NCBI RefSeq assembly: GCF_028368995.1
Contig: NZ_JAQNDL010000001.1
Span: 2,752,001-2,816,000, forward strand
Direction: 5' to 3'
DNA: 64,000 nucleotides
Origin: Nannocystis bainbridge
GTDB taxonomy: Bacteria; Myxococcota_A; Polyangia; Nannocystales; Nannocystaceae
Both the position numbers and the translations under genes were made by a program. The notes below the pieces were generated by a model. That model saw only the letters and a list, made by a program, of their open reading frames with translations. It was not told where the DNA came from and ran no database searches. Positions 3,077 through 59,572 of the stretch are shown piece after piece; within the stretch, counting starts at the first letter, position 1; every line of letters begins with the position of its first letter.

Positions 3077-3128
3077 GGACATGTCCACCGGGACATGCCC
3101 TTTCAACCATGTCTGAAACGACATGCCC
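3077..3128. repeat. Array of 14-bp TGTC-N6-GACA elements (4 CATG cores)
   Basis: CATG at 3080, 3094, 3108 and 3122; convergent intergenic region. Confidence 0.9.
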
Positions 3129-3165
3129 ATCGCGCCGCGCGTCGGCGCGAGCGGCTCCGCTTCGC

Positions 3166-4734
3166 TCACGCGCCGCGGCGGCGACGCAGGCCGAGCAGCG
3201 CGAGCAGGCCCCACGCAGCGCCGGCCGGGGCGCCGTCCGACTGGCACGCGCACGAGTCGTCGGCCCCGTCCGCGGGCGTGCCGTCGCTGTCGCTGCTGCT
3301 GTCGCCGGTCTCGCTGGCCGCGTCGGTCTCGCCGGTGCTCGCGTCGGTGCTCGCGTCGGTGTCGCCGTCGCTGTCGCTGTCGGTCTCGCCGGCGCTGGTG
3401 GTCGGGGCGGCCGTGCCCTCGACGGTGATGGTGATCGTGTGCTCGGCGGTCTGGTCGGCCTGGTCCATCACCAGCGCGGTCAGCTCGAAGCTGCCGGAAG
3501 GCAGGTTGCTGAGGGTGAACTCGAGCGCGGCGTTGTAGTCGACCACGTCGGCCACCAGCGCGCCGTCGTGCTTGACGAGCAGCTTCCAGCCGTAGCCGCC
3601 GTAGTCGTCCCACGGCTCGAACTTCACCGTCACGGCGTCGCCCTCCTGGAACACCGCGCCGTCCTCCGGCGCGGTGATGGCGATCTCCGGCGGCACCACG
3701 TCGGGCCCGGGCGGGGCGTAGATCGCCGACAGCGTGCGCGTGTCGTCCTGCAGCTCGCCCTCGTTGCAGTGGCACTTGTTGACCCCGACGCACGCGCCCG
3801 ACTGGCCCTGCACGGTGATGGTCGGGGTGCACTCGGCGCCGAAGCCCATGTCGATCGGGGCGTAGGTGTCGTAGCCGAACGCCATGACCCGATCGTTGCC
3901 CTCGGTGTGGCCGAGGCCCATCGTGTGGCCGATCTCCTGGCTCGCCACGTTGGCCTGGTTGCTCGTCGAGTCGTTGTTGACGAACGCGTAGCAGACGTTG
4001 CGCAGGCCGAGGTCCTCGCAGTCGGCGCCCGGAGCCACGCCGCCCGAGGGGCCGGCCACGGTGTCGCTGTAGTGGCCGCCCATCATGATCATCACGTAGG
4101 GCAGGACCTTCGGCGGGCGCGCGAGGTAGACCACGCGCAGGGCCCAGGCGGCGAAGTCGGCCTGGACGGCCTGGGCGACGGCGATCGCCCGCTCCTCGCC
4201 GCCGGTGTAGACCGGGTACTGCGAGCCGGTCTTGGCCAGCGCGGACCAGTTCTCGGCCGAGTTGTCGCCCATGCCGTTATAGAGGACGCCGCCGGTGTAG
4301 TTCATGTAGATCGTGCCGCGGCGCGGGTACTCGGTGCCGCGGCGGAACTCGCCCGGATAAACGCCGCCAGGGACGGCGTCGGGGTAGGCGCACAGGTCGT
4401 CGGCGCCGGGCCCCTCGACCTTGCTGCGCGCGACCTCGGGGCGGGCCGCGAACGGCGAGATCACCGGCGCGCCGTTGGCGACGGCCTCGGGCACGACCAT
4501 GCCGCCGAGTTGCACCCACCCGGGCGGCAAGCTGCCAGGCTCCTTCTCGACCACCGGCCGGCCCTCGTGCGCGGCCAGGTCCGCGAACGTCGCGCCCGCG
4601 TCAGGCCCGGGCAGGAGCGGCACGGCGTTGACGGCCCCGGGTCGCAGATCGAGCACGACCGGCCGCGCATCAGGGGCGTACGGGTTGGCCACCGCAGCCG
4701 CGGCGAGCGTGAGGACCAACGTGAGGCTCGACAT
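3166..4734 (-). CDS. Secreted metzincin-like protein (QExxH variant) with Ig-like domain and MYXO-CTERM
   Basis: QEIGHTMGLGH...DRVM (Met-turn), ITAPEDGAVF Ig-like segment, CACQS...WGLLALLGLRRRR tail. Confidence 0.75.
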   Translation of the reverse strand: MSSLTLVLTLAAAAVANPYAPDARPVVLDLRPGAVNAVPLLPGPDAGATFADLAAHEGRPVVEKEPGSLPPGWVQLGGMVVPEAVANGAPVISPFAARPEVARSKVEGPGADDLCAYPDAVPGGVYPGEFRRGTEYPRRGTIYMNYTGGVLYNGMGDNSAENWSALAKTGSQYPVYTGGEERAIAVAQAVQADFAAWALRVVYLARPPKVLPYVMIMMGGHYSDTVAGPSGGVAPGADCEDLGLRNVCYAFVNNDSTSNQANVASQEIGHTMGLGHTEGNDRVMAFGYDTYAPIDMGFGAECTPTITVQGQSGACVGVNKCHCNEGELQDDTRTLSAIYAPPGPDVVPPEIAITAPEDGAVFQEGDAVTVKFEPWDDYGGYGWKLLVKHDGALVADVVDYNAALEFTLSNLPSGSFELTALVMDQADQTAEHTITITVEGTAAPTTSAGETDSDSDGDTDASTDASTGETDAASETGDSSSDSDGTPADGADDSCACQSDGAPAGAAWGLLALLGLRRRRGA

Positions 4735-4905
4735 CGGACGATCGTAGTCGCGGATTGACCCTGCCCCGCGGACCGCTACGATCGCCCCGCCGTGCGCGAC
4801 CTCTCCCCCGTGCCGCGACTGCGGGCCTTCGTTTCGCGCGTCGCGTCGCGTGGGCCCGCCCCGGGGCGTTCACTCGGGCGGCGGAGCTGCGCCGCCGCGC
4901 GGCTC

Positions 4906-5481
4906 GTGAAGCTGGTCGTGGCCGTGGCGATCGTGGGCGCGTCGCTCGAGGTCCGGGCGGCCGAGCCGACGCCGGCGGCCCCGTTCCGCCGCCGCGGCGG
5001 TGAGCTGGGGCTGTTCGCCGACAGCAGCATCGCCAGCCAGTTGACGCTGGTCGGGGTCGGTCTGCGCGGCGGGTACTTCCTGCGCGAGAGCGTGGAGATC
5101 GGCGGAGAGCTGCAGGCGACGGTGCTGCTGGCGTCGCCGACCGATCCGTCGCAGCGGCCGCGCGCCGGCGATCCCACGGCGGCGTTCCGCGTCGCGCCGA
5201 TGGTGCGGTGGATCCCGCTGCGCACCGAGAGCTTCGCGGCCTATCTGCTCGCCGCCGTCGGGCCGCAGGTGCTCGGCGCCCGCGGCGGGGTGCTGGGTCA
5301 CGCGGTGGCGGCCCCCGGCGCGACGATCCACCTCGGCGGCCGCGTCTGGCTCGACCTGGCGATCCGCTTCTCGCTCAGCTTCCCCGGCGGCCGCTGCCGC
5401 GCGGCGTTCTCGGCCCCGGCGGCGCCCGGCTTCTGCGAGCTGCAATTCGGCCCGCAGATCGGCCTCCTCGCGGTTTTTTAA
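4906..5481 (+). CDS. Putative outer-membrane beta-barrel protein
   Basis: GTG start giving a signal peptide (MKLVVAVAIVGASLEVRA), amphipathic beta-strand pattern and C-terminal Phe. Start is uncertain (ORF track gives 4792). Confidence 0.5.
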   Translation: MKLVVAVAIVGASLEVRAAEPTPAAPFRRRGGELGLFADSSIASQLTLVGVGLRGGYFLRESVEIGGELQATVLLASPTDPSQRPRAGDPTAAFRVAPMVRWIPLRTESFAAYLLAAVGPQVLGARGGVLGHAVAAPGATIHLGGRVWLDLAIRFSLSFPGGRCRAAFSAPAAPGFCELQFGPQIGLLAVF

Positions 5482-5490
5482 AGAGTGGAA

Positions 5491-5601
5491 TCACATGTCC
5501 TTCGGGGCATGCTCTCCACGAGGTGCTCTCTCTCAAGGACATGTCCTCCGCGACATGTCCTCTTCAGCATGCGCGAGAGGACATGCTCCGAAGAGCATGT
5601 C
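5491..5601. repeat. Array of 14-bp TGTC-N6-GACA elements
   Basis: CATG at 5494, 5508, then 5540, 5554, 5568, 5582, 5596; convergent junction. Confidence 0.9.
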
Positions 5602-5616
5602 CCGCGCGCCAGCCGG

Positions 5617-6009: not shown

Positions 6010-6181
6010 GGCGCGGGACGCTATCACGAAGGCCCCGCCGCGACCTGCGGGCAAGCCCGCGTCCACGCGGTCCGCGGGGCTCTGCGAGCAACTTTGCGCA
6101 GGTGCGAGCCGGCCTGAGCAGCTCGAAGCGAACTCGACGGCGAGGCCGAACCTCGCCGCCCGAGCGCGGCGGCCTCGGCCG

Positions 6182-8214: not shown

Positions 8215-8230
8215 GCCGGCCGCCCGCCGC

Positions 8231-10774
8231 TCACTCCCAGTGGATCTCGACCAACTTCAGGGCGCCGCCCGGGTCGAGCTCCGACCACGCGGGGCCCTCG
8301 TAATACGTGAGGTAGTCGACGGCGCCGCCGGCCTGCGCGAGCTCGGGGTGGAGCAGCGCGTCCTGGATCGGCGGCGCGCCCTGCAGCGCGGGCGGCCGGT
8401 ACAGCTCGGCCGCCTCGGACCACGGTCCCTCGAGCTGCGGCGCGGTGCGCAGGACCACGACCGGTTCGTCGCGGTCGGCGTAGACCGCCACGAAGGCGCC
8501 GGCGTGGTCGCTCCAGTGCACGCTCATCGCCCCGGCGCCGGCGAACACGGCGCTCGCGCGGCGCGCCGAGGCCGACCAACCGGCGCCGGTGTAGTGGCGC
8601 CAGGCCCCGCGCTCCAGCGCGTGCGCCAGCGGGGCGCGCATCAAGTTGCAGGCGCCGCGCCGACCGCCACAGGTGAACGCGTACAGGTGATCGCCGACGC
8701 TGAGGGCCGCGGCGACGGGCAGCTCGTCGGCGCCGAACAGCAGGGTCGGCTCGGCGCTGCCTTCAGCGACCGCGGGGCGGACTGGCCGGCCGGCGAGGTC
8801 GTCGCGCCACACGGCGATCGAGCTGCCGACGTGCTGGTTGTCGGCGTTGTCCTCGAACTGGATGACCTTGCGGTAGAAGATCAGGACACGCTGGCGCGCG
8901 TGGTCGTGCACCATCGGACCTGGCCAGAGGGACACCCGCGGGCAATCGTAGCTGGCGAGGCACGCGCCGTCGTCGTACGCGAGCCCGTAGCGGGCCTCCC
9001 CGGCGGCGTACGGCAGGAATTCCGGGTCGACCGCGGCAGGGATCGCAAACGGGTGCAGGCCGTCGCGCGCGTCGAGGTCGTCCGTGACCGCGGCGGCCGT
9101 GACGTCCTGGCTCGGCGAGCCCACGTCGGTGGTGACGCGGAACCCCCACAGCGCCCGCGAGCCGAGGCCCACGCTGTGGCCGCCCTGCTCGACAGCGGGG
9201 CCCCCGTCCCGCAGCGGAAGGTCGCCCAGCGGGAGCGCCTCGGCCACCTGCAGCGCCGGCGGAACGCCGCAGCCCGCCAGCATCACGAGACATGTCCCAG
9301 CGAGCATGCCCGATCGGGCATGTCCTTTTCGCCATGCTTTTTTAAACATGTCCGAACAGCCCGCTGATGCGAGCCCCCGCTCGCGCAAGCCGGACGCCGG
9401 GCCGGCCGGCGCGGCGCCGTGACCCGACCTTTTGAACATGCCCGAACGAGCCGACGGGGTCGGCCGCTCGGCAGAGGCGGGCGGCGGCGTCGGTCCGCTC
9501 GGCTCGCCATTGCAATCTGTCCTTTCGCGCATGCCTGAACGAGCCGCCGAGCGGCGCCGCCGCCCGAGCCCGAGCAGACCGAGCAGCAGCAGCGCGGGGG
9601 CGCCCGGCTCGGTGCTGCGGCAGCCGCAGCCCTCGGCGGCCAGGCAGGTGGCGGGCGGCTGCCAGTCCGAGTCGACGGGGACGAAGTTGAGCGGCGTGAC
9701 CTCGCGGGTGCCCGCCCACGAGAACTCGAGGCTGGCCGACATATCGCCGAGGCTGCCGCGCAGCACCAGCTCGCGCGGGCCCTCGCGCTCCTCCGGCGCG
9801 ACGCAGTCGTCGGCGAGCACGATCTGCTCGGGCTGCGTGAGCTCCGGAATGTACGCGATGTCGCCACCGGCCACCGACCACGTGACCGGCAGGCCGAACA
9901 CCAGGTCGTCGCCGGCGTCGCGCGCGACGGCGCGGGCCCCGAACGGCACCGAGGTGCGGCCGATGAGCGGCGCGTCCGAGTCCTCGAGCACGAGATAAGC
10001 GCCGGCCAGCTCGAGCGAGGTGACGGTGTCCGCCGCCACCCCGGTGATCCGCGCGAGCGGCCAGCTGTGACCGGCGAAGTTGAAGGTCGCCTCGGCCTCG
10101 GTGCCCTCGAAGGTGACGATCGCGAGGTGCTCGCTCGGGTAGGTGATCGGCGGCCGCCCGCGCGTGGTCGTCCAGGTGACTTCGGCCGGCTCGGACTGGC
10201 GGGCGACGACGTGACGGGTGCCGCGCTCGAACAGGTTGACGCCGACCTCGAGCTGCTGGCCGGCGACCAGCTTGAGCTCGCGCGGCAGCGACTCGAGCCA
10301 GTCGGCGCCGAAGGTGGTGACGATCGGGTTGTCGCGCACCGCGTGTCGCATGACCATGCCGTCGAGCCAGGGCGCGGCGCGAGCCTCGACCTCGGCGGGG
10401 TCGACCACGCGCATCGTCACGCGATCGGGCGGCTGCCCCGGGGCGCCGCAGGTCGCGTCGACGGTCCACACCACCTCGCCGGGCGCCGCGGCGACGAAGC
10501 AGCCCCCGTCGGCCGTGACGGGGCCGCTGGCGTGCACGCCCGCGTCGTCGCAGGTGGCCGCGTCGGGGCAGGCGTCGCACGCGAGCTGCGGGCAGATCCG
10601 CGTGCCCGTGAGCACCAGGTACGGCGCCTCCCAGTAGGTGTCCGCGAGGTAATCACCGCGCAGATCGAGGTCGTCGACCGAAAGGCGAAAGTCACCGCGC
10701 TCGCTGATCATCTCGGGCGGATCGCAGGCCGTGAACACGACTGCACAGGATGCCATCAACCAGACACGTCCCAT
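8231..10774 (-). CDS. Composite ORF: N-terminal lipoprotein with internal MYXO-CTERM (10774 to about 9555) in frame with a DUF4185-like beta-propeller lipoprotein (9307-8231)
   Basis: Lipobox FTAC at the N-terminus; GCGCRS...LLLLGLLGLGRRRR in mid-ORF; second lipobox MLAGC; DUF4185-like motifs WPGP, WRHYTGAGW, MSVHWS, RTAPQLEGPWS, HPEL. Confidence 0.65.
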   Translation of the reverse strand: MGRVWLMASCAVVFTACDPPEMISERGDFRLSVDDLDLRGDYLADTYWEAPYLVLTGTRICPQLACDACPDAATCDDAGVHASGPVTADGGCFVAAAPGEVVWTVDATCGAPGQPPDRVTMRVVDPAEVEARAAPWLDGMVMRHAVRDNPIVTTFGADWLESLPRELKLVAGQQLEVGVNLFERGTRHVVARQSEPAEVTWTTTRGRPPITYPSEHLAIVTFEGTEAEATFNFAGHSWPLARITGVAADTVTSLELAGAYLVLEDSDAPLIGRTSVPFGARAVARDAGDDLVFGLPVTWSVAGGDIAYIPELTQPEQIVLADDCVAPEEREGPRELVLRGSLGDMSASLEFSWAGTREVTPLNFVPVDSDWQPPATCLAAEGCGCRSTEPGAPALLLLGLLGLGRRRRSAARSGMRERTDCNGEPSGPTPPPASAERPTPSARSGMFKRSGHGAAPAGPASGLRERGLASAGCSDMFKKAWRKGHARSGMLAGTCLVMLAGCGVPPALQVAEALPLGDLPLRDGGPAVEQGGHSVGLGSRALWGFRVTTDVGSPSQDVTAAAVTDDLDARDGLHPFAIPAAVDPEFLPYAAGEARYGLAYDDGACLASYDCPRVSLWPGPMVHDHARQRVLIFYRKVIQFEDNADNQHVGSSIAVWRDDLAGRPVRPAVAEGSAEPTLLFGADELPVAAALSVGDHLYAFTCGGRRGACNLMRAPLAHALERGAWRHYTGAGWSASARRASAVFAGAGAMSVHWSDHAGAFVAVYADRDEPVVVLRTAPQLEGPWSEAAELYRPPALQGAPPIQDALLHPELAQAGGAVDYLTYYEGPAWSELDPGGALKLVEIHWE
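9288..9352. repeat. Array of 14-bp TGTC-N6-GACA elements (5 cores)
   Basis: CATG at 9291, 9305, 9319, 9333 and 9347. Confidence 0.9.
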
Positions 10775-17701: not shown

Positions 17702-19182
17702 GGGCGGGGCTCCAAGGCTGGCGGGGCGAGGACGGTGATCTTGGAGATGCGCTCGACGAAGGCGCCGCGCGAGGTGCCGCGCCCGAGCTCGAGGTCGCTG
17801 ACGTGCACGCCGTCGACCTTGAGCAGGGTCTCGCGCTCGCCGGCGGGGGCGCCGTCGGGACGGCCGGGGCACGGGACCAGGTACTCGGCGAACGAGTGGA
17901 TCGCCATCGGCACGCCGGCGTCGTCGCGGCCGAGGTACAGCATGATGTGCCCCGGGAAGTGCAGCAGGACCACGCCGCGCCGGTGGGCGGCGTCGATCCG
18001 GCGCAGCCGCTCGGGCTCGGGCAGATCGGGCGCGAGGTCCTCGGCGACGCCGGCCAGCGCCTGGTCGCTGGTGTGCCGCGGCAACACCAGGCCGAGGCCG
18101 CCGAACATGTCCATGAGGAAGCGCGAGCAGTCGCGGCCGCCGGCGTAGTCGCCCCAGCCGTAGGGCCGGTGGAGGAACGAGAAGGCCTCGGTCAGCACGG
18201 CCCGGCGGGTGAGCGGCCGCTCGGGGGCCGAGACCGCGGCGGCGTCGACGGGCCGGGTGACGACGCCGCCAGGGCCGGCCAGCAGGACCTCGCCGCGGCG
18301 CCCGGCGGTCGGGAGCAGGCTGGCGAATGGGACATGTATCTTCGGACCTGCCCGATTCGACATGTCCTCGAGGACATCGAAGTCGCGGGCGGCGCGGACG
18401 AACGGGCCGCCGGTGAAGCGGCGCACGTGCTCGGCGGCGATCGGCGGCGAGAGGGCGGCGGTGGCGAGGTCGATCCAGCCCATGACGTAGGGGGTGCGGG
18501 CGAGCGCGAGGCCGCCGTCCCAGGCGCGGAGGATCTGCACCGGCTCCTGCGCGCGGGCCATGCTGCACAGGTTGCGGTCGAAGGCGAGGTCGCGGCTCGG
18601 GGTGTAGTAGGGCTCGCGCTGGGGCGCGCAGCGGATCGGGATCAGGTCGAGGGCGACGCGCACCTCGGACGGCAGCTCGGCGAAGGCGCCGGCGTCGAGC
18701 ACGGGGGTGAGCGCTGCGACCTGCGCCGGGGCCATGGCGGCGCCGTCGGGGTTGACGTAGGCGGCCGCGACGAACTTGCCGCGCAGGTAACCGAGGCGGG
18801 TGTTGAGGTCGTCGGCGAGGCGCGCGGGGTCGACGGGCGCGAGCAGGTCGGCGCGGGCGCTGGCGCCGAAGACGTCGCGGCGGGCGATCCGGGCGTTGTG
18901 GGCGGCGAGCTCGCGGGCGCTGAAGAGCGGGCGGTCGAGGTCGGCGACGGCCGCGGTGCGCGTGAGCCAGTAGTCGAGCTGCTCGTGCTCGGGGCCGGTG
19001 CGCGGGAGCGGATCGACGGCGACGCCGTTCGCCGGGCAGGCAACTGCCGGGACGACGGGCTCGGGGGCGGACGCGGCGCTGGCCGGCGGCGGAGCCCGAG
19101 GTGCCGGCTCTGGCGGCGGGGCGCCACAGGCGAGCCCGAGGAGGCCGCCGAGGAGAGCACCGCGGGAGAAGGCGGACTGCAC
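17698..19182 (-). CDS. NlpC/P60 family lipoprotein with SH3-like domain (peptidoglycan endopeptidase)
   Basis: Lipobox GLAC; PYGWGD...RDCSRF, LPRHTSDQ, GHIMLYLG and AIHS motifs. Start is inferred. Confidence 0.85.
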   Translation of the reverse strand: MQSAFSRGALLGGLLGLACGAPPPEPAPRAPPPASAASAPEPVVPAVACPANGVAVDPLPRTGPEHEQLDYWLTRTAAVADLDRPLFSARELAAHNARIARRDVFGASARADLLAPVDPARLADDLNTRLGYLRGKFVAAAYVNPDGAAMAPAQVAALTPVLDAGAFAELPSEVRVALDLIPIRCAPQREPYYTPSRDLAFDRNLCSMARAQEPVQILRAWDGGLALARTPYVMGWIDLATAALSPPIAAEHVRRFTGGPFVRAARDFDVLEDMSNRAGPKIHVPFASLLPTAGRRGEVLLAGPGGVVTRPVDAAAVSAPERPLTRRAVLTEAFSFLHRPYGWGDYAGGRDCSRFLMDMFGGLGLVLPRHTSDQALAGVAEDLAPDLPEPERLRRIDAAHRRGVVLLHFPGHIMLYLGRDDAGVPMAIHSFAEYLVPCPGRPDGAPAGERETLLKVDGVHVSDLELGRGTSRGAFVERISKITVLAPPALEPRP

Positions 19183-21933: not shown

Positions 21934-22107
21934 GCGGTGTTCTTGCGCGATCGACGAGGATTGTCCACCCGGGCCGCGAACCCCCCCCGCTCGGAGCGCG
22001 GGGACGCGCCCGCGTGAGCAGATCTGACCTCGCGGACAGGTCGAGCGACAGACGCGCGCCGGCGAGAGGGATGTCCCGACGGACAGTTTTTATGAGGGGC
22101 GATCGCG

Positions 22108-22420
22108 TGATGCGAGGCTGGCCTCTCGGACAGGTCATGCGCTGGCGCGTGATGCGAGGCTGGCCTCTCGGACAGTCATGCGCAGGCGCGAACGCATGGT
22201 GCGGGGCTGGCCCCTCGGGCAGTCACGCGCAGGCGCGAGCGACCTGTGCGGTCTGGCCTCTCGGACAGGTCATGCGCTGGCGCGTGGTGCGAGGCTGGCC
22301 TCTCGGACAATCAGGCGCTGGCGCGAACGCGTGGTGCGGGGCTGGCCTCTCGGACAGGTCGGCGCAGGCGCGAACGCGTGGGGCGGGGCTGACCTCTCCG
22401 ATAGGTCATGCGCAGGCGCG
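22108..22420. repeat. Seven degenerate 40-48 bp tandem repeats
   Basis: Unit approximately GTG(A/G)TGCG(A/G)GGCTGGCCTCTCGGACAGGTCATGCGC(A/T)GGCGC(GAACGC); no unique spacers. Confidence 0.85.
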
Positions 22421-22450: not shown

Positions 22451-22538
22451 GGTGCCCCAAAGGACATGCCTTTTAGAACATGCCCTTTGGAACATGTCGG
22501 ATAGGGCATGCTCTTTCGAGCATGCCCTCTCGAGCTAG
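22451..22538. repeat. Array of 14-bp TGTC-N6-GACA elements
   Basis: CATG at 22465, 22479, 22493, 22507, 22521; in-phase variants GGTG at 22451 and CTAG at 22535 (the latter contains the stop codon of the adjacent gene). Confidence 0.9.
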
Positions 22539-25807: not shown

Positions 25808-25950
25808 CCTGGCTCTCGGGACATGTCGATGCGGAGACGGCGGCGCGCGAGTCACGGGTAACATGTCTCTCGGGACATGATGAATCGTGAACGGTTCGAT
25901 AACATGTCCATCAGGACATGATGAATGCGACATGTCCATCAGGACATGTC
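25808..25950. repeat. Array of 14-bp TGTC-N6-GACA elements
   Basis: Pairs at 25808/25822 and 25862/25876; run at 25903, 25917, 25931, 25945. Confidence 0.9.
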
Positions 25951-25987
25951 GCAATCATGCAGCAGGCCATGCTCGCCGCGGCCGCGC

Positions 25988-30869: not shown

Positions 30870-30948
30870 GGACATGCTCCTCGGAGCATGTCCCCGAGAG
30901 CATGTCCAATGTGACATGCTCTTTTGAACATGCTCTTCGGTGCATGAC
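30870..30948. repeat. Array of 14-bp TGTC-N6-GACA elements (6 cores)
   Basis: CATG at 30873, 30887, 30901, 30915, 30929 and 30943; convergent junction. Confidence 0.92.
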
Positions 30949-30984
30949 CGAGCGAGCGGGACGAGACCCGCGTCCGATCCGCGT

Positions 30985-35869: not shown

Positions 35870-37204
35870 ATGCGCGACCTCCGGCTGCTCCGCCGACGCC
35901 TGCACACCGCCCTCACCTCGGGGCTCCTGCTCGCCGCCTGCGGCCCGGCCCCCGCGCCCGCCGAAGCCACCAAGCCCGCGCCGGCCAAGGCCGCCACGCC
36001 CGAGCCCACGCCCGCCAAGGTCGAGCCCGCTCCTGTCGTCGCCGACGCCGCGCCCGCCGGCCCGCAGTACCCGGCGCGCACCGGCATGGACCCGTACGAC
36101 CCTGACGGCCTCGAGGAAGAGGGCTGCAACAACGGCGACTGGTGCGGCCCGCCCACGGCCGCCGAGAAGTTCCGCGCCCCCCAGGCGACCGACGAGATCG
36201 GCTGTCCCACGCGCCTCATCGGCCGCCCCGACCCGGGCGACAGCGCCAAGGAGAAGGTCTTCAAGGGCCTCTCGATGAACCCGATGATGATGGGCCGCCT
36301 GCGCAAGATCGCCACCGACGACAAGCGCAAGGCCAGCGGCGACGGCGAGGTCTGCTGCTACCACTGGTTCGACTACTGCAGCGGCCGCCCGCTGCTGGCC
36401 GGCAGCGACGACGCCATGCTCGCGCCGGTCCTGCCCGGAAGGACATGGCTCTCGGAGCATGTCCCTGAGGACATGCTCGGAGGGCCAGACGCTGAGCAGC
36501 GCGCGCTGCTGGCCGCCGCCTGGCTCGTCGACGCCCAGATGGAGCACGCCTCGGTCGCCGCGTTCGCCCGCGCCGCGCTCGAGCTGATGGCTGTCGGCGC
36601 CCCGCCCGAGCTGCTGAGCGGCTGCGCCGAGGCCGGGCTCGACGAGGTCCGGCACGCGCAGGCCTGCTTCGCCCTCGCGGCCGCGTACGGCGGCGTCGCG
36701 CTCGCGCCGGGCCCGCTGCCGCCGGTGCAGCCCCGCGCCGGCGGTCTGGTCGCGCTCGCCTGCGACACCTTCCGCGAGGGCTGCGTCGGCGAGACGATCG
36801 CCGCGCTCACCGCGCTGCGCAGCCGCCGCGACTGCGAAGCCCCGGCCGCCGAAGTCGCGCTGGCGAGCATCGCCGCCGACGAAACCCGCCACGCCGAACT
36901 CGCCTGGGCCACGGTCGCCTGGGCCATCGACGTCGGCGGGCCCGAGGTCGCCGCGGCCGTGCGCGCCGTCGCGGCCGAGCTGCGAGCCGCCGCGTTCGTC
37001 GACGAGCCGTGCGCGCGCGAGCCCGACCTGCGGAGGTTCGGTCGCCTCGGTCCGCAAGCGCGGGTCGATACCCGCCGCGACGCGTGGACCGGCGTCCTCG
37101 ATCGCATGTTGAAGCTGGTCCTCGAGGATCTCGAGGTCGAGGGCGATGACCCTCGGCCGGCTCACGCCGAAGCCGCAGAGCCCGCCGTTACCTTGCGCGC
37201 CTGA
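35870..37204 (+). CDS. Myxobacterial ferritin-like domain lipoprotein
   Basis: Lipobox LAAC, Cys-rich N-domain ending in GRP, EHASVAAF, DEVRHA, EGCVGET and DETRHA. Confidence 0.85.
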   Translation: MRDLRLLRRRLHTALTSGLLLAACGPAPAPAEATKPAPAKAATPEPTPAKVEPAPVVADAAPAGPQYPARTGMDPYDPDGLEEEGCNNGDWCGPPTAAEKFRAPQATDEIGCPTRLIGRPDPGDSAKEKVFKGLSMNPMMMGRLRKIATDDKRKASGDGEVCCYHWFDYCSGRPLLAGSDDAMLAPVLPGRTWLSEHVPEDMLGGPDAEQRALLAAAWLVDAQMEHASVAAFARAALELMAVGAPPELLSGCAEAGLDEVRHAQACFALAAAYGGVALAPGPLPPVQPRAGGLVALACDTFREGCVGETIAALTALRSRRDCEAPAAEVALASIAADETRHAELAWATVAWAIDVGGPEVAAAVRAVAAELRAAAFVDEPCAREPDLRRFGRLGPQARVDTRRDAWTGVLDRMLKLVLEDLEVEGDDPRPAHAEAAEPAVTLRA

Positions 37205-39581: not shown

Positions 39582-39658
39582 GCTGTCCATGCGGACATGC
39601 CCTAAAGGACATGTCCGGCGCGCCATGACCATTCGGACATGCCCCCATGAGCATGTCC
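39582..39658. repeat. Array of 14-bp TGTC-N6-GACA elements
   Basis: CATG at 39596, 39610, 39624, 39638, 39652, with GCTG at 39582 in phase; convergent junction. Confidence 0.92.
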
Positions 39659-40933: not shown

Positions 40934-41049
40934 GACCGACTCCTCCGGCGCGACTGGCGCCAGAATCGCCTCTTACCGGAGCGCGCGCACAGGTGTCAAT
41001 CAGCCGTCCTCCGACGCACAATCCCCCATCCCGGCGCGCGGCTCAACGG

Positions 41050-41290
41050 CCCAGCTCGCTTCGCAACGACATGTCCCCGGGGACATGTCAGCTTCTCGCC
41101 GACCTCGGCCGCGCCGGTCCAGCTCGCTCGCCGCGACATGTCCCCGGGACAGGTCATCCTCTCGCCGGCCTCGGCAGCGACGGTCCAGCTCGCTCGCCGC
41201 CCATGTCTCCGGGAACAGGTCATACGCATCGCCGGCCTCGGCACGCGACGCCCTGACCCCTCCTTTCGGACATGTCCCCGAGGACAGGCG
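41050..41290. repeat. About 66-bp imperfect tandem repeats, each with CATGTC-N5/6-GACA
   Basis: CCAGCTCGCT...CATGTC(C/T)CCGGG(G/A)ACA(T/G)GTCA...TCGCCG(G/A)CCTCGGC units with cores at 41070, 41137, 41202 and 41271. Confidence 0.8.
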
Positions 41291-49400: not shown

Positions 49401-49480
49401 GGACATGTCCTCGCGGGCATGTCCCATACGACATATCGCCTCATGCCTTTTCCTTGCGACATGTCCCCTGGAACATGTCC
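49401..49480. repeat. Array of 14-bp TGTC-N6-GACA elements
   Basis: Cores at 49404, 49418, 49432 (CATA), 49460 and 49474, all in one 14-bp register, just after the stop codon. Confidence 0.88.
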
Positions 49481-51420: not shown

Positions 51421-51513
51421 GCACATGTCCCTGTGGACATTCCTCAAAAGACATGTCTCTAGAGACATCTCGGTCCCAGGCGCGACGTCACGCGTGTCCT
51501 GGAGGACATGTCC
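51421..51513. repeat. Array of 14-bp TGTC-N6-GACA elements
   Basis: Cores at 51424, 51438 (CATT), 51452 and 51466 (CATC); pair at 51493/51507. Confidence 0.88.
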
Positions 51514-53307: not shown

Positions 53308-53333
53308 CCGGGCCCGATGGGATGTGGCGGTTC

Positions 53334-53411
53334 GGGCATGTCCTCACGGGCATGCCCACAAGACCATGTCCAAATCGACATGTCTTAAAAAACATGTCCT
53401 GAAGAACAGCC
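53334..53411. repeat. Array of 14-bp TGTC-N6-GACA elements
   Basis: CATG at 53337, 53351, 53365, 53379, 53393 and CAGC at 53407; convergent junction. Confidence 0.92.
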
Positions 53412-56318
53412 TCACCCCGGGTGCGACGCCAGCCACGCCTCGATGCGCCGCTGCGCCTCGGCCGGATCGGCGAGCGGCAGCCCCTCGGCCGCGGTTCTGG
53501 CGAGCGCCCGGCCGGCCGGCCGATCGCGGCGCCAGCGGGCCGTCGCGGTCCCCAGGTGGTCGAGCACGATCTCGAGCCCCGCCGAGGGGTTCATCGCCAC
53601 GATCGCGCGGCCGCGGGCCAGCAGCGGCGCCGCCTCCGTCGCGCGCTTGCTGGCCACCAGCGCCTCGCCCAGCAGGTGGGCCGCGAACCCCACCTCCACG
53701 TGCTCCGGCCCGAACACGCGCTCGCGGATCGCCAGCGCCTGCTGCAGCGGCGCGATCGCCTCGGCCGGGCGCCCGTCCATCTGCAGCACGATCCCCAGGT
53801 CGTAAAAGATCCACGACGCCTCGCTGCTGGCCTGCTCCCCGCGCGCCTGCGCGATCGCCTCGCCGCGGCGCAGGTGCGCCTCCGCGGCCGCGAACTCGCC
53901 GCGCGACGCCAGCTCGAGCGCCAGGTTGCACAGCGGCGTCAGCAGGGCCATCGCCTCGCTCCCGTGCGCCTCCTCGGCCACCGCCAGCGAGCGACGGTTG
54001 AGCCCCAGGCACTCCGCCTCGCGCCCCGTCTGGCACGACGCCACCGCCAGCCCGGCCAGCGTCTCGGCCACCGCCGGGTGGGCCCCGCCCAGGCTGCGTT
54101 CGCGGATCGCCAGCGCCCGGCGGAAGTGGCCCAGCGCCGCCTCGTGCTCGAGCCGCTGCACCGCCACCCGCCCGAGGTTGTGCAGCACCACCGCCACGTC
54201 CGGGTGGTGCTGGCCCAGCACCTGCTGGCGCAGCGCCAGCGACTCGCGCAGCAGCGCCTCCGCCTCGTCGAGCCGGTTCTGGTCCATGCGCGACGACGCC
54301 AGCGCGTTGGCGGCCCGCACGAAGTCGAGCGGCGCCTCGCGCTTGCGCGACTCGGCCAGCGCCAGCGCCCGCGTCTGCACCTCGGCCGCCTCCACCAGCC
54401 GGTCCGCGCCGGACAGCGTCAGCCCGAGCGCCATCAATTGGGCCAGCCGCGGCGTCGGCGGGTCACCGATCCGTCGCAGCTTGGCGTCGGCGACATCGCT
54501 CCACAGCAGCGCCTCGGCCGGCTCGCGCAGGCGCACCCCGTTGACGTGGCTGAGCTGCGTCGCCGCCGTCGCGGCCACCTCGTCGTGGCCGGCCGCCTCG
54601 GCCACCGCGAACGCCCGCCGCAACGTCGCTCGCGCCTCCGCGTACTCGGCCGCGGCCGCCTGCGCCGACCCGTGGCGGACCAGCGCCTCTGCCAGCGCCG
54701 GCGCGTAGCCGACAGCCTCTGCCGCCTCCACCGCCCCGCGCGCCGCGTCGCGGGCCGTCTTGAACCTGCCCGCGTCGAACTCCGCCTTGGCCGCCGCCAG
54801 CCGGTCGCGCAGCCCTGCCACCGCCTCGACCTGGGCCGGCTCGCGCGGCGGCGGCAATCGCTCCGCCTCGGCGCGCAGCGTCGCCAGCTCGGCGCAGCGG
54901 GCCAGCGGCGTCAGCCCCGAGGCCGCCTGGGCCGCCCCGCGGACCGCGTCGAAGTCGGCCGCCTGCAGCACCCCCGCCACCGCCGCCAGCTCGGCCCGCC
55001 GGCGCTCGAGGCAGCCTTCGTGCAGCGCCTGGACCTCGGGCGCCAGCCCGCCCGCATGGCGCAAGAGACATGCCCTTTCGGTCATGTCCTGAAGTTCATC
55101 CGCGTACGCGTCGAGCCGGTGGGCCGCGGCCGCCCACGCGTCGGCCGCGAACGGCGCCGCCGTGGCCAGCACCGCCGCCCGCGCCGCTGCCCGCCCGCCC
55201 TCGTCCCAGCCCGGCACCAGCCCCGCCGCGGTCCGGCACTGCGCCGCCACCTGGCCCTCAGGACCTGTCCTTGCCGCCATGTACCCAAAGCCAGCCGCGA
55301 TCGCGACCGCCGCCAGCGCCCCGGCCGCGATCAGCCGCCGCGTGCGCCGCTGGCCCGCCTCGGTCAGCGCCGCCAGCAGCGCCGCCATGTCGGGGAAGCG
55401 GCCGTCGGGGTCGAGCGTCAGCCCGCGGCGCAGCACCGCCGCCACCGCCGCCGGGACCTGGCCTCGCGGCGCCCGCAGCTCGCCCGCGAACACCTGCGGC
55501 GCCAGCTCCTCGACCCGGCGACCGACGAACGGCCGCGCCCCGTACAGCCCCTCCCACAGCGACACGCAGAAGCCGAACTGGTCCGAGCGGGCGTCGGCCG
55601 GCGCGCGCATCATCTGCTCCGGGGCCATGTACGCCGGCGTCCCGAGCAGCGTCCCGGCCTCCGTCAGCGGCCCTGACAGCGCCGACGCGTCGGCCGCGAA
55701 CAGCCGCGCCGTATCGGTCAGCGCCAGCGGCAGCCGCGGCGACGCGCCCGGCTCCTCGTCGCCGAGCGCCGGCACCCGGGCGATCCCGAAGTCGACCACG
55801 CAGACCCGCCCGCTGGCGTCGATCATCGCGTTGTCGGGCTTGAAGTCGCGGTGGACCAGCCCGGCCGCGTGCGCCGCTGCCAGCCCGCGGCCGGCCTGCA
55901 GGTAGGCCGCCAGGATCTCGCGCCACTTCCTCGCCTGTCTCTTCTGCCATGTCCTCAGGGTCAGGCCGTCGAAGAACTCCATGGCCAGGAACACCCGCCC
56001 GTCGGCGCTGCCGACCGCGTAGACCTGGACCACGTTCGGGTGCGAAAGCTTGGCCAGCGCCTGCGCCTCGCGCAGCATCCGCGCCCGCCCGAACGAGCCC
56101 TCGTGCTCGCCCGCGTGCATCCACTTGAGCGCGACGCAGCGGTCGAGCTCCTCGTCGTAGGCCAGGTAGACCGCCCCCATCCCGCCGACCCCGAGCTGAC
56201 GGATCACCGTGTAGCGGTCGATGCGGAACGGCTGCGGCGCCGCGACGTCTCGCGCCGGCGGCCCCGACTCGTGCCGCGTCGGGACCTCGCTCGGGTCGCT
56301 TGTGGCCGCCGGTTCCAC
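53412..56318 (-). CDS. Ser/Thr protein kinase with TM segment and TPR repeats
   Basis: GVGGMGAVY, VALK, HRDFKPDN, DFG, GTPAYMAPE and SDQF motifs; TPR repeats (LG..HP.VA). Confidence 0.95.
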   Translation of the reverse strand: MEPAATSDPSEVPTRHESGPPARDVAAPQPFRIDRYTVIRQLGVGGMGAVYLAYDEELDRCVALKWMHAGEHEGSFGRARMLREAQALAKLSHPNVVQVYAVGSADGRVFLAMEFFDGLTLRTWQKRQARKWREILAAYLQAGRGLAAAHAAGLVHRDFKPDNAMIDASGRVCVVDFGIARVPALGDEEPGASPRLPLALTDTARLFAADASALSGPLTEAGTLLGTPAYMAPEQMMRAPADARSDQFGFCVSLWEGLYGARPFVGRRVEELAPQVFAGELRAPRGQVPAAVAAVLRRGLTLDPDGRFPDMAALLAALTEAGQRRTRRLIAAGALAAVAIAAGFGYMAARTGPEGQVAAQCRTAAGLVPGWDEGGRAAARAAVLATAAPFAADAWAAAAHRLDAYADELQDMTERACLLRHAGGLAPEVQALHEGCLERRRAELAAVAGVLQAADFDAVRGAAQAASGLTPLARCAELATLRAEAERLPPPREPAQVEAVAGLRDRLAAAKAEFDAGRFKTARDAARGAVEAAEAVGYAPALAEALVRHGSAQAAAAEYAEARATLRRAFAVAEAAGHDEVAATAATQLSHVNGVRLREPAEALLWSDVADAKLRRIGDPPTPRLAQLMALGLTLSGADRLVEAAEVQTRALALAESRKREAPLDFVRAANALASSRMDQNRLDEAEALLRESLALRQQVLGQHHPDVAVVLHNLGRVAVQRLEHEAALGHFRRALAIRERSLGGAHPAVAETLAGLAVASCQTGREAECLGLNRRSLAVAEEAHGSEAMALLTPLCNLALELASRGEFAAAEAHLRRGEAIAQARGEQASSEASWIFYDLGIVLQMDGRPAEAIAPLQQALAIRERVFGPEHVEVGFAAHLLGEALVASKRATEAAPLLARGRAIVAMNPSAGLEIVLDHLGTATARWRRDRPAGRALARTAAEGLPLADPAEAQRRIEAWLASHPG

Positions 56319-56466
56319 CCTGGCCGCACCAGCGTACCGAGCCGGTCCCGCGACGGGAACGCCGACGGATCACTGTCCCGCAATTCGGCGACATTTCGCC
56401 GCGCAAGTGCGAATCGGGCCCTCGCCCAGCCGGCGCGCGCCTTCGAGCCGTGCGCCCGCGCCGCCG

Positions 56467-58578: not shown

Positions 58579-58828
58579 GATCGGCCGATCATAAGCGCCG
58601 GCGGACAAATCCGGCGCGCCCGCCCTCGCGGGCCCGCTCACCCTCGCCAGCCCCCGCGAGCCGGAGCGAAGATCGGGCCGACGACGCCAAGGCCCGCCTC
58701 CGCGCCAAACCATGCGCCCGAGGCTCTCGCTCTCCGGGCTCGCGCCCTCGGGCGCCCCAGGGCGACCGCACCACCTCCGCCGCCTCACGCACCTCGCGCA
58801 CGGGCCACAAACGCCGGCCCGAGCCGGC

Positions 58829-59257
58829 TCACGGCCGCCCGGACGGCAGCGCCCGCCGCACCAGCGCCACGTACACCAGCAGCCCCACGGGCCCGAGCAT
58901 CAGCGTCAGCACCTGGCACGGCACCACCAGCAAGCGCGAGCTGCCGCGCGCCGCCGCGTCGCGACCGATCCACGCGCCGACCCACAGATCGAACGCCAGG
59001 TAATGCACCCACCCGGCCAGCATCACCCACGGGTTCTGGAACAGCCGCATCACGCCCTCGAGCGAGTTGAAGGCCCGCAGGTCCTCCGTCGTGAAGTGCG
59101 GCAGCAGGATCGCCAGGTAGATCGCCGACAGCAGCAGCGAGAACACCCCGCTGTACACCAGCCGCTGCGTCACGCGAGCCCGCGGCGCCAACCACAGCAG
59201 CACCCAGCCGGCCAGGGTCGCGGAGTTGAGGATTGTGAACAGTCGATGCGGATCCAC
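58829..59257 (-). CDS. ABA4-like / DUF4281 membrane protein
   Basis: GW...P, SLEGVMRLF, AGWVHYLAFDLWVG and LTLMLGPVGLL motifs. Confidence 0.88.
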   Translation of the reverse strand: MDPHRLFTILNSATLAGWVLLWLAPRARVTQRLVYSGVFSLLLSAIYLAILLPHFTTEDLRAFNSLEGVMRLFQNPWVMLAGWVHYLAFDLWVGAWIGRDAAARGSSRLLVVPCQVLTLMLGPVGLLVYVALVRRALPSGRP

Positions 59258-59488
59258 GACCCGCAGCGTCTCACAATCCCGCCCCGCCGCGCACCCCGAT
59301 CCGCACCGGCTCTCGCCTGAACCCTCCGGCAGCCCCACCTCGCCACGATCCCGGCCCCCCAGGAATCACCTCGCGTCGCCCCTCCTCGACCCGAGCAGCC
59401 GCCCGGCCCACCACGCTCCCGCCCCACGCGCAGATCGCTCCGCCCAGCACCGCCCCGACCCGGCCCGCGCGGCGTCCTCTCTCTCCAA

Positions 59489-59572
59489 CCTGTCCCTTCG
59501 GCCATCAATGCCTGTCCCTTCGACCATCAAAACCTGTCCCTTCGGCCATCAAGACCTGTCCCTTCGGCCATC
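59489..59572. repeat. Four 22-bp tandem repeats CCTGTCCCTTCG(G/A)CCATCAAnn
   Basis: Copies at 59489, 59511, 59533 and 59555 in a divergent intergenic region. Confidence 0.9.

What the first reader, a model, noticed from the sequence alone, without database searches (positions are those of the whole stretch)
3077..59572. Pervasive phased arrays of a 14-bp palindrome (TGTC-N6-GACA): candidate undescribed DNA-binding or chromosome-organisation system
Seen: at least nine clusters in which CATG recurs exactly every 14 bp (3080-3122, 5540-5596, 9291-9347, 22465-22521, 25903-25945, 30873-30943, 39596-39652, 51424-51466, 53337-53393, plus 49404-49474 with one gap). The unit is TGTC-N6-GACA abutted head-to-tail. 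The N6 differs between neighbouring units, so these are not recent tandem duplications: register and half-sites are kept while spacers vary. The arrays are AT-richer than the background. Inference: a dimeric protein binds the site cooperatively. At about 10.5 bp per turn, 14 bp rotates each dimer by about 120 degrees, so three units cover four turns, as expected for a helical nucleoprotein filament. Possible roles are nucleoid organisation, parS/matS-like marking or a transcription roadblock. The spacing does not fit CRP-type TGTGA-N6-TCACA or NifA-type TGT-N10-ACA sites, and I recognise no cognate protein gene in this window.
Basis: partly seen in the sequence, partly recalled or inferred. 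Interest (0 to 1): 0.9.

Follow-up and report, generated by a model that had tools for sequence, protein, structure and literature searches.

The report
Nannocystis-specific iterated dyad, phased 3'-end arrays
The 14-bp phased CATG arrays are real and are the densest form of a short two-part palindrome (TGTCC-N4-GGACA) that occurs about 2,000 times in this genome, almost only in the genus Nannocystis, is conserved between species, and looks like the recognition site of an unidentified dimeric DNA-binding protein.

Summary
In the window, CATG pairs 14 bp apart number 44 against 0-5 at other distances. Three phased CATGs occur 25 times against 0.00 in 100 shuffles. The 11-Mb genome holds about 1,185 arrays and 5,208 units, against 1 array in a reversed-genome control. 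Arrays start 5-20 nt after stop codons. They occupy 414 of 910 short convergent intergenic regions but 9 of 751 divergent ones. A scan of 185,579 species found five-unit arrays only in Nannocystis. Arrays sit at orthologous sites in other species. Cores are 85-91% identical and spacers 39-45%.

The elementary unit is the dyad TGTCC-N4-GGACA. It has 1,987 perfect copies against 0-16 at any other spacing tested, N0-N13, and only 343 lie in arrays. 364 lie deep inside confident genes. I found no base-pair covariation and no RAYT gene in 11 genomes.

My best reading, at about 0.5, is a site for an unidentified dimeric dsDNA-binding protein, with overlapping sites forming the arrays. Its function is unresolved. 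A REP-like RNA-hairpin role at 3' ends is the main rival. My literature searches found no description of it.

The parts
3077..3128 (.). Phased array, 4 units, between convergent ORFs 663-3059 (+) and 3166-4734 (-)
5537..5602 (.). Phased array, 5 units, between convergent ORFs 4906-5481 (+) and 5617-6009 (-, MAPEG family)
9288..9353 (.). Phased array, 5 units. It lies in a stretch with no coding signal (about 9270-9500), at the stop of minus-strand ORF 9342-10580.
18330..18367 (.). Weak array, 3 units; the middle core is CCTG
22095..22420 (.). Repeat of about 47 bp, 7 copies. Five units carry one exact dyad TGGCC-tctc-GGACA. It lies upstream of PPK2 gene 21130-21933 (-).
22462..22527 (.). Phased array, 5 units, directly after the stop (22535) of a minus-strand ORF
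25862..25951 (.). Array with 6 CATG cores and one 27-bp step. 25900-25951 holds 4 phased units. It lies downstream of minus-strand ORF 25988-26740.
30870..30949 (.). Phased array, 6 units, between convergent ORFs 29303-30859 (+) and 30985-32295 (-). An array is present at the orthologous site in 5 other species.
36441..36478 (.). Array, 3 units, inside predicted ORF 35870-37204; the gene call is uncertain
39593..39658 (.). Phased array, 5 units, between convergent ORFs 38787-39572 (+) and 39677-40879 (-, VWA domain)
41046..41250 (.). 66-bp repeat, 3 copies, each with one dyad-like site: one perfect TGTCC-ccgg-GGACA and two shifted or degenerate. It lies between divergent ORFs.
49401..49480 (.). 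Array spanning 6 unit positions, two of them degenerate. It lies after the stop of ORF 48050-49390 (+).
51421..51458 (.). Array, 3 units, with cores CATG, CATT, CATG. It lies after the stop of ORF 49569-51410 (+).
53334..53399 (.). Phased array, 5 units, between convergent ORFs 51721-53307 (+) and 53412-56318 (-)
55055..55086 (.). Three phased CATG cores inside predicted ORF 53412-56318 (-); status uncertain
59487..59572 (.). 22-bp tandem repeat, 3.9 copies. Three units carry TGTCC-cttc-GGCCA and one TGTCC-cttc-GACCA. It lies in the divergent region before the giant ORF that starts near 59855.

Best explanation
Shown: the arrays are the packed form of a hyper-abundant, genus-restricted dyad, C[A/C]TGTCC-N4-GGACA[T/G]G. 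Where copies abut, the outer CA and TG of neighbouring dyads form CATG, and this gives the exact 14-bp period. The dyad is kept by purifying selection, or by an equivalent drive, at more than 1,000 3'-end arrays and at more than 1,600 single sites, several hundred of them inside genes.

Inferred: each dyad is the recognition site of a homodimeric, sequence-specific duplex-DNA-binding protein that belongs to Nannocystis and perhaps its two nearest genera. Each monomer would read one 5-7-bp half-site, about one helical turn from its partner. Arrays let several dimers sit side by side, each turned about 120 degrees from the last.

Site density follows how much foreign sequence a region tolerates: convergent gene ends most, then co-directional intergenic regions, then promoter regions, then genes.

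The function of the bound protein is not resolved. Candidates are a nucleoid or boundary protein at the ends of transcription units, or a self-recognition tag of the DNA-uptake kind.
For: 1. Abundance and spacing. There are 1,987 perfect TGTCC-N4-GGACA against 3 in the reversed genome. The other spacings tested, N0-N13, give 0-16 copies, including N1 = 0, N7 = 2 and N10 = 11, which keep the codon phase. Eleven same-composition permuted dyads give 1-28 copies.

2. The dyad, not the half-site, is the unit. 829 of 1,930 ACCTGTCC words are followed by N4-GGNCA. That is 43%, against my base-composition estimate of 0.65% by chance. The reversed control gives 1.

3. No base-pair covariation in any register. 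Observed Watson-Crick fractions equal the expectation at all 7 dyad pairs over 6,393 units. MI is at most 0.01 for the non-adjacent pairs, that is pairs 1-14 to 6-9. Neighbouring-unit pairings also show none. What correlation exists lies within a half-site, or between the two flanks of one CATG, and it disfavours doubly deviant units.

4. Core variants do not follow RNA pairing rules. CAGG/CCTG account for 39 of 509 and CATT/AATG for 34 of 509. The wobble-compatible CGTG accounts for at most 1 and CACG for 3.

5. Spacers are strand-symmetric, with no excess of stable tetraloops: UUCG 22 against CGAA 21, GNRA 56 against its complement 47.

6. Copies inside genes. 364 lie in the interiors of confident genes (5.26 Mb), against 0-10 for the permuted dyads. 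They are spread evenly along genes and sit on poor codons: log-odds -0.22 against +0.53, GC3 0.74 against 0.95.

7. Conservation. At 33 orthologous arrays (181 units), CATG is 85-91% identical, GGA/TCC 57-66% and spacers 39-45%, with flanking genes at 89.9%. Of 21 single sites aligned between species, 19 keep all 10 specified bases while their flanks are 84-85% identical.

8. Single dyads also occur in repeats with periods of 22, about 47 and 66 bp in promoter-side regions of the window.
Against: - No cognate protein was found. A Pfam PadR search of the genome found nothing, and I never assembled a candidate list.
- The arrays start 5-20 nt after stop codons. This is most simply read as a transcript-level 3'-end role.
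- Every array tested folds strongly as RNA, with z from -3.3 to -6.5.
- In co-directional arrays the sense RNA is predicted to be more stable than the antisense: -30.9 against -27.7 kcal/mol, p = 4e-4. There is also a weak sense-strand G+T excess in the stems: 139 arrays against 113, p = 0.008.
- Canonical hairpin-plus-T terminators are not above chance in 20 kb of the window: 1 found against 3.0 expected. The niche is therefore open.
- Real arrays fold slightly better than arrays rebuilt from units of other arrays: -6.61 against -6.25 kcal/mol per unit, p = 3e-4.
- My gene calls are home-made. Some assignments of 'inside gene' and of intergenic class will be wrong.
Confidence: 0.5

Rival explanations
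1. REP/BIME-like 3'-end element read as a hairpin in RNA or single-stranded DNA. Transcripts that run into an array fold into tandem stem-loops, with neighbouring units pairing and the 4-nt spacer as loop. These would stop or pause RNA polymerase in both directions, or protect the mRNA 3' end. The shared sequence would come from common descent from one dispersed element.
For: - Arrays begin 5-20 nt after stops.
- 414 of 910 convergent intergenic regions of 60-300 nt carry arrays, against 9 of 751 divergent ones.
- Predicted folds are strong, at -30 to -51 kcal/mol with z from -3.3 to -6.5.
- The sense strand folds better than the antisense, p = 4e-4, with a weak G+T skew.
- Canonical terminators are not above chance: 1 against 3.0 expected in 20 kb.
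- Convergent regions without arrays also fold better than divergent ones: median -25.8 against -23.7 kcal/mol, p = 2.5e-5.
Against: - No compensatory covariation in any pairing register over more than 6,000 units.
- The third to fifth stem pairs are Watson-Crick in only 40-56% of units.
- The wobble-compatible core variant CGUG is essentially absent.
- There is no sense-strand preference for UUCG or GNRA loops, and no T-tract after arrays.
- Loop length never varies: the other spacings tested, N0-N13, give at most 16 copies against 1,987.
- 364 conserved copies lie deep inside genes, where a terminator hairpin would do harm.
- No RAYT gene was found in 11 of 11 genomes of the genus.
Confidence: 0.22
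2. DNA-uptake or self-recognition sequence of the DUS/USS kind. A surface or periplasmic receptor of the transformation machinery prefers DNA carrying the dyad. Biased uptake plus recombination would then spread and maintain the dyad wherever it is tolerated, with no function at the individual sites. Arrays would simply be the densest tolerated packing.
For: - About 2,000 perfect copies lie in both genes and intergenic regions.
- Density follows tolerance. Perfect dyads per Mb: 1,111 in convergent regions, 532 in co-directional, 240 in divergent and 71 in genes.
- Copies inside genes show a reading-frame bias of 209/111/32.
- There is a graded, dialect-like spread: 1,550-2,090 copies in the six largest Nannocystis assemblies including this one (12.0-13.2 Mb, and G000 at 11.0 Mb), 161 and 87 in two sister genera, and 1-7 in 12 others.
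- ComEC and DprA are encoded.
- Passages of preprint 10.1101/2025.10.24.684340 describe the same traits for DUS/USS: hundreds to thousands of copies, presence in genes and intergenic regions, about half in terminators, and a frame bias.
Against: - Known uptake sequences are single asymmetric words of 9-10 nt that work alone. Here the unit is a dyad with obligatory N4 spacing.
- Phased tandem arrays are not a feature I know of for DUS/USS (recalled).
- I found no record that Nannocystis is competent.
- ComEC and DprA are also found in 10-11 of the 14 control genomes, so they say little.
Confidence: 0.18
3. Non-functional by-product. The arrays would be a 14-bp minisatellite that grows by slippage, or the trace of a repair or methylation bias as proposed for cyanobacterial HIP1, with no reader protein or RNA role.
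For: Recent tandem duplications exist. One array has 8 near-identical units, at C3:1085843. Runs of 2-3 identical units occur elsewhere. Adjacent spacers are identical slightly more often than chance, 3.3% against 1.1%.
Against: - Cores are 85-91% identical between species while the spacers within the same arrays are near saturation at 39-45%.
- Arrays are kept at 33 of 37 syntenic sites.
- Single sites are conserved inside genes against codon preference.
- Unit counts in convergent regions peak at 4 instead of decaying from 1.
Confidence: 0.05

Closest known systems
REP/BIME elements of enterobacteria and pseudomonads (RAYT-associated extragenic palindromes)
   Same: Hundreds to about a thousand extragenic palindromic clusters. 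They lie mostly after genes and between convergent genes, can form hairpins, and are specific to a lineage.
   Different: - The unit is 14 bp, not about 20-40 bp (REP size recalled).
- The phase is exact and the spacers are free.
- No Y1/RAYT transposase was found in 11 of 11 genomes.
- There is no covariation.
- Hundreds of copies lie inside genes.
DNA uptake sequences (DUS of Neisseriaceae, USS of Pasteurellaceae)
   Same: Thousands of copies, present in genes and intergenic regions, with a reading-frame bias, enrichment at gene 3' ends as inverted repeats, and lineage-specific 'dialects' (passages).
   Different: This is a dyad-symmetric two-part site with fixed N4 spacing, not a single asymmetric word. 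It forms phased tandem arrays. Uptake bias has not been tested.
HIP1 (GCGATCGC), the highly iterated palindrome of cyanobacteria (recalled, not read here)
   Same: A lineage-specific short palindrome at very high copy number, in both coding and non-coding DNA, with no agreed function.
   Different: HIP1 is a contiguous 8-mer. Here there are two 5-7-bp half-sites with a free 4-bp spacer, strong 3'-end enrichment and phased arrays.
Operator arrays of dimeric regulators: FNR-type 5-N4-5 sites, and tandem MetJ or Omega boxes (recalled)
   Same: Dyad architecture with half-site centres about one helical turn apart. Tandem sites are kept in strict register, and half-sites vary independently.
   Different: The copy number is thousands, not tens. 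The sites are mostly at gene 3' ends and inside genes, not in promoters. No protein is known.
CdbA of Myxococcus xanthus, a ribbon-helix-helix nucleoid protein with more than 500 sites
   Same: It is a myxobacterial sequence-specific protein that binds several hundred chromosomal sites (passages of PMC7156744).
   Different: CdbA binds a GC-rich direct repeat separated by 4 bp, not a CATG-flanked inverted repeat.

Membership tests
REP/BIME (RAYT-associated) | Clusters of palindromic units in extragenic DNA, mainly at gene 3' ends | tested here: met
   546 of 1,185 arrays lie between convergent genes. 414 of 910 convergent regions carry arrays, against 9 of 751 divergent ones.
REP/BIME (RAYT-associated) | A cognate Y1 (RAYT) transposase gene in the genome | tested here: not met
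   PF01797 gave 0 matches in G000 and in 11 of 11 genomes of the genus. The control search rang in 6 of 14 known genomes.
REP/BIME (RAYT-associated) | Confined to extragenic space | tested here: not met
   364 perfect dyads lie in the interiors of confident genes.
Structured RNA or hairpin element | Compensatory base-pair changes that preserve the stem | tested here: not met
   Observed Watson-Crick fractions equal the expectation at all dyad pairs over 6,393 units. MI is at most 0.03 for neighbouring-unit pairs. Rfam found only a tRNA in the window.
Intrinsic (hairpin plus U-tract) terminator | A T-run directly after the stem | tested here: not met
   T is at most 0.36 at any position after arrays in sense orientation. 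The consensus scan found 1 site against 3.0 expected in 20 kb.
DNA uptake sequences (DUS/USS) | Hundreds to thousands of copies in genes and intergenic DNA, with a frame bias and 3'-end enrichment | tested here: met
   Compared with passages of 10.1101/2025.10.24.684340.
DNA uptake sequences (DUS/USS) | A single asymmetric word is the functional unit | tested here: not met
   43% of ACCTGTCC words have a partner at exactly N4, against my base-composition estimate of 0.65% by chance. The other spacings tested, N0-N13, are at background.
DNA uptake sequences (DUS/USS) | Sequence-biased DNA uptake and a specific receptor | not testable with these tools
   Only ComEC (143 bits) and DprA (116 bits) were shown to be encoded. 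They are not specific.
parS/matS-type chromosome marks | A few to tens of sites confined to one chromosomal region | tested here: not met
   Arrays lie on all 5 contigs, at 6-47 per full 250-kb bin.
Operator of a dimeric transcription factor (5-N4-5) | Dyad with fixed spacing and independently varying half-sites | tested here: met
Operator of a dimeric transcription factor (5-N4-5) | An identified protein that binds it | not tested
   No candidate was found. PadR (PF03551) gave 0 matches in G000.

The most novel reading that the evidence does not exclude
Nannocystis carries a dedicated sequence-specific protein that reads a dyad code of several thousand sites. The protein would polymerise on the overlapping-site arrays found at about two thirds of convergent gene ends. 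There it would act as a two-way transcription roadblock or a supercoil-domain boundary. That would make it a bacterial counterpart of protein-bound terminator and insulator arrays such as the TTF-I sites behind rRNA genes.
Probability: 0.2. Interest if true: 0.85.

Novelty: new variant of a known kind. Interest (0 to 1): 0.72.

Why it matters
About 0.7% of an 11-Mb genome is devoted to one 14-bp motif. The motif is conserved across a genus, fills nearly half of the short convergent gene ends with arrays, and persists inside genes against codon preference.

A signal this strong and this sequence-specific implies an unknown trans-acting reader. The possibilities are a new kind of nucleoid, boundary or termination protein, a third independent DNA-uptake sequence system, or a new class of extragenic repeat without a RAYT. 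Each would be new for Myxococcota.

The question is now directly testable. The site is defined to the base. Phase and spacing controls are obvious. Cultured Nannocystis strains with complete genomes exist. The graded distribution, with two sister genera carrying 87-161 copies and 12 carrying almost none, gives a phylogenetic profile for finding the protein.

Tried and rejected
- **Gene calling.** Three crude gene callers merged or truncated genes. I replaced them with the codon-model caller. It covers only 74-79% of each contig, so intergenic classes are approximate.
- **Hairpin covariation.** Tested in three registers: none found.
- **Loop motifs.** Tested in sense orientation: no bias.
- **Even-number or multiple-of-three preference in unit counts**: none.
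- **Singleton analysis.** At PWM score 9 or above it was swamped by chance hits in coding DNA. I redid it on intergenic sites.
- **PadR lead.** I recalled that ATGT-N8-ACAT is the PadR-type operator. PF03551 gave no match in G000.
- **RAYT.** No match.
- **CdbA of M. xanthus.** Its motif is different.
- **Bacterial histone.** It is also present in sister genera, so it does not fit the distribution.
- **Self-regulated gene.** I looked among 97 genes with an array near their start. No evident DNA-binding candidate emerged. Many apparent starts are simply the ATG of a terminal CATG.
- **Hot spots.** At most 12 arrays per 30 kb; there is no source locus.
- **Sister genus.** 200 kb of G024 showed no 4-mer periodicity other than multiples of 3. 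Only 41.6 kb of G022 could be read.
- **Viral contigs.** 0 hits.
- **RNA evidence.** No RNA holder was listed.
- **Literature.** Searches, and the N. exedens genome announcement (term search only), gave no description of the motif.
- **Papers seen.** PMC7156744, passages. 10.1101/2023.02.26.530074, one passage. 10.1101/2025.10.24.684340, passages. All others were seen as search listings only. No supplements were opened. The CdbA peak lists and the DUES tables may hold relevant detail that I did not see.

Full report
**1. The observation**

In the window, two CATGs lie exactly 14 bp apart 44 times. The counts at 28, 42 and 56 bp are 27, 17 and 11. Other distances give 0-5. Three phased CATGs occur 25 times, against a mean of 0.00 in 100 dinucleotide-preserving shuffles. 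The arrays have 53.6% GC against 73.0% for the window. Neighbouring spacers are almost always different: they are identical in 3.3% of cases against 1.1% for random pairs.

There are three corrections. The cluster at 51424-51466 has exact CATG at only 2 of its 4 phased positions. The cluster at 49404-49474 has two degenerate positions. The stretch at 59487-59572 is a 22-bp tandem repeat in which each unit carries one dyad-like site.

**2. Scale and location in the genome**

The window lies in an assembly of 11.05 Mb with 71.5% GC, in five contigs. Genome-wide, 3,736 CATG pairs lie 14 bp apart, against roughly 70-300 at neighbouring distances. 801 runs have three or more exact phased CATGs, and the longest has 12.

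I built a position weight matrix from units flanked by two good units. With it I found 1,185 arrays holding 5,208 units, against 1 array in the reversed genome. That is about 0.7% of the genome, by my arithmetic of 5,208 units times 14 bp.

Gene positions come from a codon-model gene caller of my own, which is approximate. Of the 1,185 arrays, 546 lie between convergent genes, 461 between co-directional genes, 89 between divergent genes and 89 inside predicted genes.

The distance from a stop codon to the first unit peaks at 5-20 nt. In co-directional regions the array sits next to the upstream stop, and the downstream start lies a median 182 nt away.

Among intergenic regions of 60-300 nt, 414 of 910 convergent ones carry an array. 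So do 190 of 1,933 co-directional ones and 9 of 751 divergent ones. Counting single units in regions of 40-400 nt, 66% of convergent regions hold at least one unit and 47% hold three or more. For divergent regions the figures are 20% and 2%. The unit count in convergent regions peaks at four.

Arrays lie on all contigs without a hot spot. The genes flanking the window's arrays are unrelated to one another: MAPEG, PPK2, a beta-lactamase-family protein, a VWA-domain protein and others.

**3. Taxonomic range**

A four-unit pattern is present in 9 of 10 other genomes of the same genus. The five largest (12.0-13.2 Mb) hold 61-94 copies, four smaller ones (5.3-9.1 Mb) hold 1-2, and one holds none. 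It was found in none of 14 other genera of the family and none of 16 genomes from other families of the class. The reversed pattern gave 0.

A five-unit pattern scanned over one genome from each of 185,579 species gave 52 loci. All are in Nannocystis: punicea, exedens, pusilla, radixulma and sp. RBIL2. It gave none in 2.9 million viral contigs. In 200 kb of a sister genus, no 4-mer showed a period other than multiples of three. The same test on 200 kb of this genome gave CATG at 14 bp with z = 54.

**4. Conservation**

The array at 30870-30949 follows the stop of the same gene in five other species. The genes are 79-86% identical. The arrays cannot be aligned in their spacers and differ in unit number, yet all keep the phased cores.

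I examined 44 arrays of five or more units from other species. 37 have syntenic flanks in this genome. 33 of those have an array of three or more units at the same spot, and the other 4 have phased pairs.

Over 33 aligned array pairs (181 units, flanking genes 89.9% identical), identity is 85-91% at CATG, 57-66% at the GGA/TCC flanks and 39-45% in the spacers. Several species were compared with the same loci, so these pairs are not independent.

Slippage does occur: one array has eight near-identical units. It cannot explain why the cores are kept while the spacers between them are saturated.

**5. The unit is a dyad, and the arrays are its minority form**

Edge units of arrays keep the half-site that faces the array. 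Apparent single units are flanked by ...GTCC-N4 on the left and N4-GGACA... on the right. This pointed to TGTCC-N4-GGACA as the unit.

It has 1,987 perfect copies, against 3 in the reversed genome. The other spacings tested, N0-N13, give 0-16 copies, including N1, N7 and N10, which keep the codon phase. Eleven permuted dyads of the same composition give 1-28 copies. The variant GGCCA adds 786 copies, against 20 in the control.

Only 343 of the 1,987 lie in phased arrays. Of the others, 555 lie in predicted genes, 600 in co-directional regions, 312 in convergent regions and 176 in divergent regions.

The half-site extends to C[A/C]TGTCC. It reads CATG where dyads abut and mostly CCTG where a dyad stands alone, especially in genes.

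The half-site alone is not the unit. 829 of 1,930 ACCTGTCC words are followed by N4-GGNCA. That is 43%, against my base-composition estimate of 0.65% by chance, and the control gives 1.

Perfect dyads per Mb number 1,111 in convergent regions, 532 in co-directional, 240 in divergent and 71 in genes.

The dyad is equally abundant in the other large Nannocystis assemblies, at 1,550-2,090 copies. Two sister genera hold 161 and 87. Twelve other genera of the family hold 1-7, which is near control level. In the genus with 161 copies I sampled 20 sites. By a crude test 11 looked genic, and 19 stood alone, with one followed in phase by a second dyad.

**6. Hairpin or protein site?**

Every array I folded forms tandem or nested stem-loops, with z from -3.3 to -6.5. 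The 3'-end position would suit a terminator or an mRNA stabiliser. Three weak signals favour a transcript-level role:
- Sense RNA folds better than antisense in 159 co-directional arrays: -30.9 against -27.7 kcal/mol, p = 4e-4.
- The stems show a small sense-strand G+T excess: 139 arrays against 113, p = 0.008. Controls and spacers lack it.
- Convergent regions without arrays fold better than divergent ones, p = 2.5e-5. Canonical T-tailed terminators are not above chance in 20 kb of the window: 1 against 3.0 expected.

Against a hairpin as the selected feature:
- No covariation exists in any register. Observed Watson-Crick fractions equal the expectation for all seven dyad pairs over 6,393 units. 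The same holds for pairings between neighbouring units.
- Pairs 3 to 5 of the mini-stem are Watson-Crick in only 40-56% of units.
- Real arrays fold barely better than arrays rebuilt from units of other arrays: -6.61 against -6.25 kcal/mol per unit.
- The tolerated core variants are CAGG/CCTG and CATT/AATG. The wobble-compatible CGTG is not among them.
- Loops show no sense preference for UUCG or GNRA. No T-run follows the arrays. Loop length never varies.
- The correlations that do exist disfavour doubly deviant half-sites or units. This is the expected pattern for a threshold on binding energy.
- 364 perfect dyads lie at least 100 nt inside confident genes, spread evenly along them. They sit on poor codons (log-odds -0.22 against +0.53). 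This is partly a consequence of the motif's own A and T bases, so the weight rests on the 364 against 0-10 contrast.
- Of 21 single sites aligned between species, 19 keep all ten specified bases while their flanks are 84-85% identical.

A terminator hairpin would not be kept inside genes. A site read on duplex DNA could be.

**7. Best reading and its limits**

I conclude that a dimeric protein reads the dyad sequence-specifically, most likely on duplex DNA. The half-site centres lie about one helical turn apart. The arrays are abutting sites.

No protein was identified. PadR was a recalled lead and gave nothing. The CdbA motif is different. Genes with arrays near their starts gave no candidate.

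What the protein does is open. A roadblock or domain-boundary role would explain the arrays at convergent ends. A nucleoid protein would explain the dispersed sites. The density order (convergent, then co-directional, then divergent, then genes) is also what a drive of the DNA-uptake kind would produce without any local function. It parallels what is reported for DUS/USS. That model, however, expects a single asymmetric word, not a dyad. ComEC and DprA are encoded but are not specific.

**8. Comparison with known systems, and novelty**

The family resembles REP/BIME in location and copy number. It fails three tests for membership: no RAYT in 11 of 11 genomes, no restriction to extragenic DNA and no covariation. 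It resembles DUS/USS and HIP1 in being a lineage-specific, hyper-abundant short motif found in both genes and intergenic DNA. It differs from both in its two-part dyad form and its phased arrays.

Full-text searches for Nannocystis repeats or intergenic features, for myxobacterial REP elements and for the motif itself found no description. I rate it a new variant of a known kind, namely lineage-specific iterated palindromes. If the reader protein proves to be a boundary, termination or uptake factor, it could turn out to be new in kind.

Noticed in passing
window 483-555 (+): A tRNA gene, and the only Rfam match in the window at gathering threshold (71.6 bits).
   Followed up: no
window 59487-59572, 22095-22420 and 41046-41250: Longer-period tandem repeats (22, about 47 and 66 bp) carry one dyad-like site per unit, most of them exact. 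They lie on the promoter side of genes, not at 3' ends. The dyad is therefore also used at spacings other than 14 bp.
   Followed up: partly
genome-wide, e.g. G000:C1:2811491, C3:1999640-1999858, C2:2616756-2616864: The exact 14-mer of the 22-bp repeat, including its spacer, occurs 50 times. 21 of the 22 copies on contig C1 are on one strand. Some copies sit in repeats with periods of 33, 108 and 109 bp. The strand bias is unexplained.
   Followed up: partly
window 59855 to beyond 64000 (+): A giant open frame, 59855-69418 in window-relative coordinates by my first caller. It contains internal repeats of 18-141 bp at 61185-61505 and a 72-bp repeat at 63708-63944. My codon-model caller did not call it as a gene.
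   Followed up: no
window 22600-23690: A dense block of GC-rich tandem repeats (periods 12-120 bp) lies inside a minus-strand open frame. It probably encodes a low-complexity protein.
   Followed up: no
genome-wide, e.g. G000:C1:782655-782706, C3:1247979-1248044, C5:15205-15256: In about 25 cases the predicted start codon of a gene is the ATG of the last CATG of an array, so the protein begins with MS... This may be an artefact of my start-codon rule. If it is real, those arrays overlap translation starts.
   Followed up: no
G000:C1:1-200000: GTTG recurs at a 39-bp distance 39 times, against a median of 0. This is probably a coding tandem repeat.
   Followed up: no
G000 whole genome: No Pfam PadR match at E <= 0.001 in an 11-Mb genome. 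All 14 control genomes gave a PadR match.
   Followed up: no
L083 (G013:C13:265973-266586): In the sister genus that holds 161 dyads, one sampled site is followed in phase by a second dyad (TGctt-tccc-ttGGGACAgg region). It may be an early two-unit array outside Nannocystis.
   Followed up: no
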